A stretch of 64,000 nucleotides of DNA, taken from positions 121,148,001 to 121,212,000 of the forward strand of contig OZ024743.1 in NCBI GenBank assembly GCA_964016885.1, read 5' to 3'. Origin of the DNA: Eledone cirrhosa (lineage: Eukaryota). The stretch's first letter is position 1. Every line of letters starts with the position of its first letter. Both the position numbers and the translations under genes were made by a program. This document shows, in pieces, positions 3,501-4,415 of the stretch. The notes beneath the pieces were generated by a model. The model was not told the origin of the DNA, ran no database searches, and was given only the letters and a program-made list of their open reading frames with translations.

Positions 3501-4016
3501 ACATTTTACGTGTGTGGGATTGTAGAATTGTAAGTTTACAGGCATAATATAATCTGCTTAACGTTATCCAAATGCGTCTGGATGTACCTCTGTGTGTGTG
3601 TCTATTCATTTGTTTATGTGTACTCACACACACACACACACACACACACACACACACACACACACACACACACACACACACACACACACACACACATATA
3701 TATATATATATATATATGTGTGTGTGAGTACAAATAAATATATATATATATGTGTGTGTGAGTATATATATATATATATATATATATATATATATATATG
3801 TGTGTATATATATATGTATATATATATGTGTGTATATATATATATATGTGTATATATATATGTATATATATATATGTGTGTGTGTGTGTGAGTACAAATA
3901 AACAAATGAATAGACACACACACACAGAGGCACATCCAAACTCACTTGGATAACGTTAAGCAGATTTTATTATGCCTGTAAACTTACAATTCTACAATCC
4001 CACACACGTAAAATGT
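3501..4016. repeat. Inverted duplication (~125 bp arms, 3501-3626 / 3889-4016) with (CA)n/(TA)n spacer
   Basis: Direct reverse-complement match with about 6 mismatches. Confidence 0.95.
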
Positions 4017-4061
4017 ATATGTATATATATATATATATATATATATATATATATATATTAA

Positions 4062-4415
4062 ACAAAATTGTAGCTGATGTTCTTGGCCTTCTGCACTCTA
4101 GTCTCAACTTTTCTATCTTCAGTGAAGATAATCCCTAGGTTCTTGAACTCTTTCACTCTTATGCAAACATATTCGTGTATCAGGACAGATGCATACATAT
4201 ATATATTTACGAGTACCTATACCTATATACCTATATATCACCTTGACCGGTGATATATAAGTACTCGTAAATATATATATGTATGCGTCTCTCCTGATAC
4301 ACGAATATGTTTGCATAAGAGTGAAAGAGTTCAAGAACCTAGGGATTATCTTCACTGAAGATAGAAAAGTTGAGACTAGAGTGCAGAAGGCCAAGAACAT
4401 CAGCTACAATTTTGT
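4062..4415. repeat. Near-perfect long palindrome (~170 bp arms, 6-nt loop at ~4243-4248)
   Basis: 4062-4242 is the reverse complement of 4249-4415 apart from 2 substitutions and a small ACCTAT(AT) microduplication. Confidence 0.95.

What the first reader, a model, noticed from the sequence alone, without database searches (positions are those of the whole stretch)
3501..4415. Twin fold-back duplications on both sides of one (TA)n tract
Seen: A-(microsatellite)-A'-(TA)n-B'-B. The new copies A' (3889-4016) and B' (4062-4242) both abut the central (TA)n (4017-4059), while the originals continue into flanking DNA. B runs into an old RTE relic, so this is copied local DNA and not a TIR transposon. 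Inference: a break where both ends snapped back, copied themselves and were joined through (TA)n, either by repair at a TA cruciform or by an abortive Penelope-type reaction. The arms differ in divergence (~6 vs ~2 mismatches), so two events are possible.
Basis: partly seen in the sequence, partly recalled or inferred. Interest (0 to 1): 0.7.

Follow-up and report, generated by a model that had tools for sequence, protein, structure and literature searches.

The report
Double fold-back scar at broken microsatellite
Two short stretches of ordinary local DNA have each been copied backwards onto either side of one TA repeat, most likely as the scar of sloppy repair at a broken microsatellite, in a genome where similar hairpins left by Penelope-type jumping genes are very common.

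Summary
The twin palindrome is real. Arms differ by 6/125 and 2/167 bases; contigs of three runs of one sample hold both TA junctions, the B apex and both A variants. It is no MITE: A is single-copy, B runs on into a decayed LINE.

TA-capped hairpins are not rare here: 112 of 174 local inverted duplications in 1.58 Mb. Most are dispersed families with Penelope-like-element (PLE) architecture, which this scan already noted in this genome. One twin was seen, 1.6 expected by chance.

What differs: both arms are host DNA, without PLE tail or hammerhead. Three more single-copy fold-backs, all with microsatellite loops, turned up. The B apex is the exact TA-tailed 3' end of an RT-encoding LINE family (416 copies); its orientation suggests synthesis ran TA to B' to apex to B, against a symmetric snap-back. 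Best reading: iterative template switching during repair of a broken microsatellite; enzyme unproven (host 0.5, PLE 0.3). A variant of known processes; modest interest.

The parts
3501..3625 (+). Arm A, the original: single-copy host DNA, continuous with the left flank
   Evidence: genome search finds only A and A'
3626..3889 (.). Left loop: compound microsatellite (CA)36, (TA)n, (TG)n, with two short partial copies of the start of A' at about 3718-3738 and 3752-3764 (inferred abortive fold-backs; the longer one shares the A' variant base)
   Evidence: sequence; TRF
3890..4016 (-). A', inverted copy of A, ending at the TA tract with a 4-nt overlap (ATGT)
   Evidence: junction seen as loose end in X18
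4017..4061 (.). Central ATATG(TA)18TTAA tract joining the two copies
4062..4242 (-). B', inverted copy of B, starting at the TA tract; 14 extra stutter bases at about 4217-4231
   Evidence: junction seen as loose end in X18
4232..4249 (-). Apex: last 12 bases plus TA tail of a LINE/SINE family 3' end, reverse-complemented on the + strand; 6-nt loop at 4243-4248
   Evidence: 416 exact genome matches vs 0 control; 3 of 25 loci carry RT C-terminal ORF pieces ending 42-55 nt before the tail, Pfam RVT_1 E=1.9e-7 for one piece; apex as a whole occurs once
4249..4415 (+). Arm B, the original: from about 4320 part of a decayed LINE relic that continues colinearly past the arm end to about 4660
   Evidence: 4 dispersed relatives at 73-76%, two crossing 4415; blastn and tblastn to L003-L006

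Best explanation
This is a pair of inverted copies of neighbouring host DNA joined through a TA tract, most likely a non-functional scar made when a break in the (CA)n/(TA)n microsatellite was repaired by a slippage-prone host polymerase that switched template repeatedly at TA microhomologies. Inferred path, as one top-strand 3' end: it folded back in the self-complementary microsatellite, aborted twice (the partial copies), copied about 125 bases of A (A'), re-annealed in TA, primed on the opposite strand of the right-hand DNA, copied about 170 bases of B backwards and 12 bases into a LINE 3' end that stood before B (B' and apex), then returned to the normal template; the rest of that LINE copy was lost. 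Two successive events of the same type give the same product. Shown: anatomy, host origin of the arms, identity and orientation of the apex, recurrence of the class. Inferred: the break, the order and direction of synthesis, the lost LINE body, the enzyme (Pol theta / microhomology-mediated BIR type). The break itself could come from a TA cruciform or from a PLE endonuclease.
For: Arms are local DNA. Three more genome-unique, TA-capped fold-backs in 1.58 Mb (L045, L109, L149); 3 of 3 have microsatellite-rich loops against 5 of 108 other capped events (p=2.5e-4, post hoc); L045 also holds partial copies in its loop. A tail followed by a second TA tract within 150 nt is seen in 70 of 83 family events but 1 of 5 host events. 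No hammerhead core pattern on either side, no ACTC..GAGT tail stem in 5 of 5 host events, no Rfam match at gathering level among the 150 rows shown. About 3 of 13 uncapped fold-backs without dispersed hits also have microsatellite loops, so the class does not need a TA cap. Literature passages: Pol theta alternates snap-back and in-trans copying (PMC4912351); TA-repeat breaks are repaired by MMEJ (PMC13645644); MM-BIR gives fold-backs with inserts of median 155-234 bp (PMC13065848); short-range template switches make inverted repeats (PMC7954356).
Against: No ancestral allele or orthologue was seen, so the pre-event state is inferred. Tracts of 125-180 nt are long for Pol theta alone (median 7 bp in vitro) and for ape template switches (median 12, max 128). 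Side B has a short non-microsatellite loop and TA-first geometry like the PLE hairpins, and a WACTC word just past its arm end as in 6 of 20 families (background 2%; one case, post hoc). PLEs are abundant nearby and L109's fold-back abuts a PLE stub across its TA tract. The host class rests on 3 cases. A dedicated scan for microsatellite-centred hairpins found only 12 of 1210 tracts, 1 of them without dispersed hits, and missed the window's own side A.
Confidence: 0.5

Rival explanations
1. A mis-templated Penelope-like reaction: a PLE endonuclease cut the TA tract and its reverse transcriptase, primed from TA, copied neighbouring DNA or a local transcript instead of its own RNA, giving the usual TA / inverted copy / short loop / direct copy shape with host sequence.
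For: Same TA cap as roughly 200,000 extrapolated hairpins, 83 of 115 in dispersed families, at least family 1 tied to RT plus GIY-YIG ORFs. Apex orientation implies TA-first synthesis. A PLE protein cuts and extends both strands of AT-rich DNA and starts on RNA without homology (PMC11167929); Naiads favour (TA)n and occur in Octopus (PMC8557442); PLEs move host DNA in trans (PMC3846280). A decayed PLE lies 1.5 kb away.
Against: No pLTR, tail, hammerhead or second TA tract. Published in-trans mobilisation needed pLTR sequences. Host cases have microsatellite loops, which family hairpins mostly lack. Side A is simply explained by cis fold-back.
Confidence: 0.3
2. Side B is an aborted LINE insertion: target-primed reverse transcription made 12 bases of cDNA on the strand of B, the end closed into a hairpin, and a nick about 180 bases from the tip opened it.
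For: B' followed by the apex reads exactly like target primer plus nascent cDNA of this TA-tailed LINE; it gives the observed loop orientation.
Against: None of 25 other loci of this terminus has an inverted copy across it. The apex is unique and no wider head-to-head form was found. It does not explain side A or the other host cases.
Confidence: 0.1
3. One reading: both broken ends snapped back on their own strands and were joined through TA.
For: Fits side A, the central TA, and the arm divergences, which do not differ significantly. An 11-bp stem at the apex could seed a fold-back if it existed beforehand.
Against: With an ordinary LINE end before B, bottom-strand snap-back would leave the complementary loop on the + strand, not the one seen (inference). 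It needs a pre-existing mini-hairpin that occurs nowhere else in the genome.
Confidence: 0.07
4. Assembly or amplification chimera, or termini of a dispersed MITE.
For: No read or contig spans the whole structure; the three supporting runs are one sample.
Against: Arms have diverged; both junctions, the apex and both A variants are in run contigs with doubled depth on shared parts. No other copy of A; B's relatives are 73-76% and ignore the arm end.
Confidence: 0.03

Closest known systems
Templated insertions by Pol theta end joining / microhomology-mediated BIR (PMC4912351, PMC13065848, PMC13645644; passages)
   Same: Break at TA repeats, snap-back plus in-trans copying, repeated short re-priming, 1-4 nt junction overlaps, insert sizes as in MM-BIR.
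   Different: Here a fixed germline scar in an invertebrate; tracts far longer than Pol theta alone makes; no enzyme evidence.
Short-range template switch mutation, four-point model (PMC7954356; passages)
   Same: A reverse-complement fragment of nearby DNA creates a local inverted repeat; side B fits a single out-and-back switch.
   Different: Fragments of 125-180 nt equal or exceed the reported maximum (128); switch points sit in TA microsatellites; two such fragments abut.
Insertion hairpins of endonuclease-bearing Penelope-like elements: inverted pLTR plus one-sided tail (PMC8557442, PMC3846280 passages; PMC11167929 parts 1-2 of 4)
   Same: Inverted copy ending exactly at (TA)n, variable arm and loop length; dominant source of such hairpins in this genome.
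   Different: Arms are not element sequence; no tail, hammerhead or closing TA tract; the direct arm is continuous with host DNA.
Templated inverted duplications at yeast DSBs by fold-back (PMC11724301; search listing and start of abstract only)
   Same: Fold-back priming at a break gives an inverted duplication.
   Different: Mostly 5-34 bp there.

Membership tests
Penelope-like element insertion | Arms are the 3' end (pLTR) of a dispersed element with a fixed arm end | tested here: not met
   A single-copy; B relatives 73-76% cross the arm end; neither joins the 20 families
Penelope-like element insertion | One-sided tail, then target TA again | tested here: not met
   No TA tract within 150 nt beyond A or B; 70 of 83 family events have one
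Penelope-like element insertion | Hammerhead ribozyme motif in the pLTR (absent in Naiads) | tested here: not met
   No core pattern in 3300-4016 or 4062-4700 (the pattern also misses many family members); no hammerhead among the Rfam rows shown
Penelope-like element insertion | Inverted copy abuts a (TA)n target | tested here: met
Penelope-like element insertion | Made by PLE RT and GIY-YIG endonuclease | not testable with these tools
   needs biochemistry or comparative genomes
MITE / TIR DNA transposon | Terminal inverted repeats of a dispersed unit with target-site duplication | tested here: not met
   one arm of each pair is continuous with host flank
Template-switch / MMEJ repair scar | Inserted DNA is templated from the immediate flanks | tested here: met
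Template-switch / MMEJ repair scar | Microhomology at switch points | tested here: inconclusive
   4 nt at A'/TA, about 3 nt with a 1-nt slip at TA/B', 1 nt at the apex (read); short overlaps with TA are easy to get by chance
Template-switch / MMEJ repair scar | Ancestral allele lacks the copies and joins the two originals | tested here: inconclusive
   No joint or second allele in X18-X20; contigs break in the repeats; no related genome is held
Template-switch / MMEJ repair scar | Dependence on Pol theta or BIR factors | not testable with these tools
   needs genetics
LINE target-primed insertion with hairpin (side B) | Recurs at other copies of the same LINE end | tested here: not met
   0 of 25 loci

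The most novel reading that the evidence does not exclude
Penelope-like retroelement enzymes act genome-wide as a mutagen of host DNA: after cutting TA microsatellites they sometimes copy the neighbouring chromosome instead of their own RNA, leaving thousands of host-sequence hairpins (about 5,700 by extrapolation from 3 in 1.58 Mb), and this locus is a case where both sides of one tract were copied. The apex would record the direction of synthesis and so support TA-primed, not self-primed, formation of PLE inverted ends.
Probability: 0.25. Interest if true: 0.6.

Novelty: new variant of a known kind. Interest (0 to 1): 0.3.

Why it matters
The locus itself is very likely functionless. Its value is as a readable scar. 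It points to a minor class of hairpins made from single-copy DNA at microsatellites (about 2 per Mb), hidden among about 70 per Mb TA-capped hairpins that are mostly element-derived. Such hairpins could form double-stranded RNA or fragile sites if transcribed or extruded (untested). If PLE enzymes made them, they would bear on the open question of how PLE inverted ends form; if host repair made them, they are a germline record of repair at TA breaks so far studied in cell lines.

Tried and rejected
MITE and assembly chimera: rejected. Apex as a recurrent mini-element: exact apex occurs once; head-to-head form with 0-30 nt gap, 0 matches. Pfam on two short translations of B's relic: no hit; BLASTP of B's piece against the young LINE ORF: no alignment, so B's relic is another, older family and 'RTE' is a label by eye, recalled. 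Rfam at E<=5: only below-threshold microRNA and low-complexity matches. X21 laid 0 reads. A look for an empty allele at L045 gave no result, so that question stays open. Of 6 sample singletons without hits in 1.7 Mb, 5 were searched genome-wide: 3 unique, L168 dispersed, L185 ambiguous because the dispersed hits cover its flank and only the edge of its arm; L139 was not searched. Microsatellite-centred detector was insensitive. Twin as proof of a coupled event: expected host-host twins by chance are 2-9 per genome, or 0.08-0.33 in the 1757 windows noted so far, so the evidence is weak. Paper searches listed no report of host-DNA fold-backs at TA tracts in cephalopods; the library is partial and no supplements were read. 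Scan notes on host-DNA fold-backs or near this place: none.

Full report
Observation. The structure is as described. A (3501-3625) and A' (3890-4016) are 119/125 identical with one 2-nt indel; B' (4062-4242) and B (4249-4415) are 165/167 identical, B' having 14 extra bases near a 6-nt loop. Both copies end at the central TA tract. Contigs of runs X18-X20, one sample and possibly the assembly's own, show both TA junctions (X18), the B apex without differences (all three) and both A variants at about half the depth of the shared part. Nothing spans the whole unit and no empty allele was seen. The window lies in a 3.0-Gb animal genome; that it is an octopus is my recollection from its repeats, not a call result.

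What the arms are. A is found only here. B has four dispersed relatives at 73-76%, two crossing its outer end, and the homology continues in register to about 4660. So B is the original, inside a decayed LINE; the RTE label is by eye, Pfam gave nothing. The genome search warns that it skips common words, so 'single-copy' is at its sensitivity. A MITE is excluded.

The left loop holds two short copies of the start of A', each followed by TA. The B apex, 4232-4249, is the TA-tailed terminus of a dispersed family: 416 exact matches against 0 for the control. Of 25 loci read, three carry reverse-transcriptase C-terminal ORF pieces ending 42-55 bases before the tail (RVT_1, E=1.9e-7); most others look like a SINE sharing that end. 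The complete apex occurs once and none of the 25 loci has a hairpin across the terminus.

Direction of synthesis (inference). If an ordinary copy of this LINE end stood in sense before B, a snap-back of the right end's own 3' strand would leave the complementary six bases in the loop. The loop seen is the one made by a strand that starts at the TA tract, copies B backwards, runs 12 bases into the LINE end and returns. A hairpin-capped end opened far from the tip gives the same. The symmetric model needs a pre-existing mini-hairpin found nowhere else.

How common. In 158 evenly spaced 10-kb stretches (1.58 Mb) I found 179 local inverted duplications (at least 30 non-simple bases, loop at most 500, identity at least 85%, satellites dropped). 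Of 174 away from edges, 111 have (TA)n at one outer end, 1 at both and 62 at neither; a random position has it in 329 of 17,053 cases. One TA tract of 1957 had a hairpin on both sides, against 1.6 expected by independence. Of 115 one-side-capped events (4 from the window), 83 fall in 20 families with a fixed arm end and a shared continuation. Family 1 lies 330-460 bases after RT plus GIY-YIG-like ORFs, with and without its tail (RVT_1 hits there are below Pfam's cut-off, GIY-YIG passes it for L148). This is the published PLE architecture: inverted truncated copy, one-sided tail, (TA)n targets, present in Octopus (PMC8557442 passages; PMC3846280 passages). I tied only a few families to ORFs directly. 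Earlier scan notes report the same for this genome; I reached it before opening them and took from them the idea that TA is the primer.

The host-DNA class. Of 30 sample singletons, 24 had dispersed hits in 1.7 Mb. Five of the other six were searched genome-wide: L109, L045 and L149 are unique, L168 is dispersed, L185 is ambiguous. All three unique cases have microsatellite loops like side A, against 5 of 108 other capped events; a second TA tract after a tail is seen in 70 of 83 family events and 1 of 5 host events. L045 also has partial copies in its loop. Three in 1.58 Mb extrapolates to about 5,700 per genome and 2-9 host-host twins by chance, so this twin is unusual but is weak evidence for one coupled event; arm divergences do not decide it (p=0.15).

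Mechanism. The most economical account is one 3' end at a broken microsatellite: fold back, abort twice, copy A, re-anneal in TA, copy B from the opposite strand, return. This matches passages on Pol theta's alternation of snap-back and in-trans copying (PMC4912351), MMEJ at TA-repeat breaks (PMC13645644), MM-BIR fold-backs of similar size (PMC13065848) and short-range template switches (PMC7954356), though the tracts are long for the first and last. I give it 0.5. A PLE enzyme copying local template gets 0.3: side B has PLE geometry, a PLE protein cuts and extends both strands of AT-rich DNA in vitro (PMC11167929, parts 1-2 of 4), and a decayed PLE lies 1.5 kb away; but no pLTR, tail or hammerhead is present. 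An aborted LINE insertion (0.1), symmetric snap-back (0.07) and artefact (0.03) follow.

Verdict. Real, host-templated, probably functionless. It works like a template-switch repair scar and resembles a PLE hairpin, but fails the tests for being a PLE insertion. Eight paper searches listed no description of the host-DNA class in cephalopods; a recent Octopus repeat annotation (PMC13282606 passages) lists active PLE and RTE families and did not mention such hairpins in the passages seen. New variant of a known kind; interest 0.3.

Noticed in passing
window 5925-9862: Decayed Penelope-like element: inverted terminal repeats 5925-6382 and 9409-9862 (93%), each abutting (AT)n; ORF piece 8191-9198 is 71% identical to an RT plus GIY-YIG ORF of L148 and has a cysteine cluster before the GIY-YIG region.
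   Followed up: partly
window 4919-5811: Tandem of two family-0 hairpin stubs, each preceded by the same TA-centred palindrome of microsatellite-rich DNA (4919-5046, 5330-5429).
   Followed up: partly
window 9935-10080, 29453-29576, 52381-52488: Further TA-capped hairpins of family 0.
   Followed up: partly
L045:6169-6518; L109:2298-2957; L149:3662-4029: Single-copy host fold-backs with microsatellite loops and a TA cap. L045 has partial copies in its loop; L109 has a second, nested fold-back and abuts a PLE stub.
   Followed up: yes
L156:9470-9977: The one twin hairpin across a TA tract in the sample; both halves belong to dispersed repeats.
   Followed up: partly
L081:504-1638: Palindrome of 562-nt arms, 100% identical, holding a GIY-YIG-like ORF end in both arms: a young inverted PLE pair.
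   Followed up: no
window 15225-25530 and 59444-64000: Several copies of an (AAT)n-tailed LINE; ORF 60387-63809 (-) has RVT_1 and zf-RVT.
   Followed up: no
window 6633-7562 (-): 310-codon open frame of H/N/Y/T-rich repeats inside the PLE, no Pfam hit; recalls the asparagine-rich inserts reported in rotifer Penelope ORFs but lies on the opposite strand to the RT piece.
   Followed up: no
window 43629-45063; 37110-41840: Inverted pairs 1-3 kb apart at 97-100% identity (43629-43864/44825-45063; 37110-37169/40499-40558; 40561-40663/41738-41840).
   Followed up: no
window 3125-3295: Fragment of the SINE-like family that shares the LINE 3' end seen at the apex; a separate copy.
   Followed up: no
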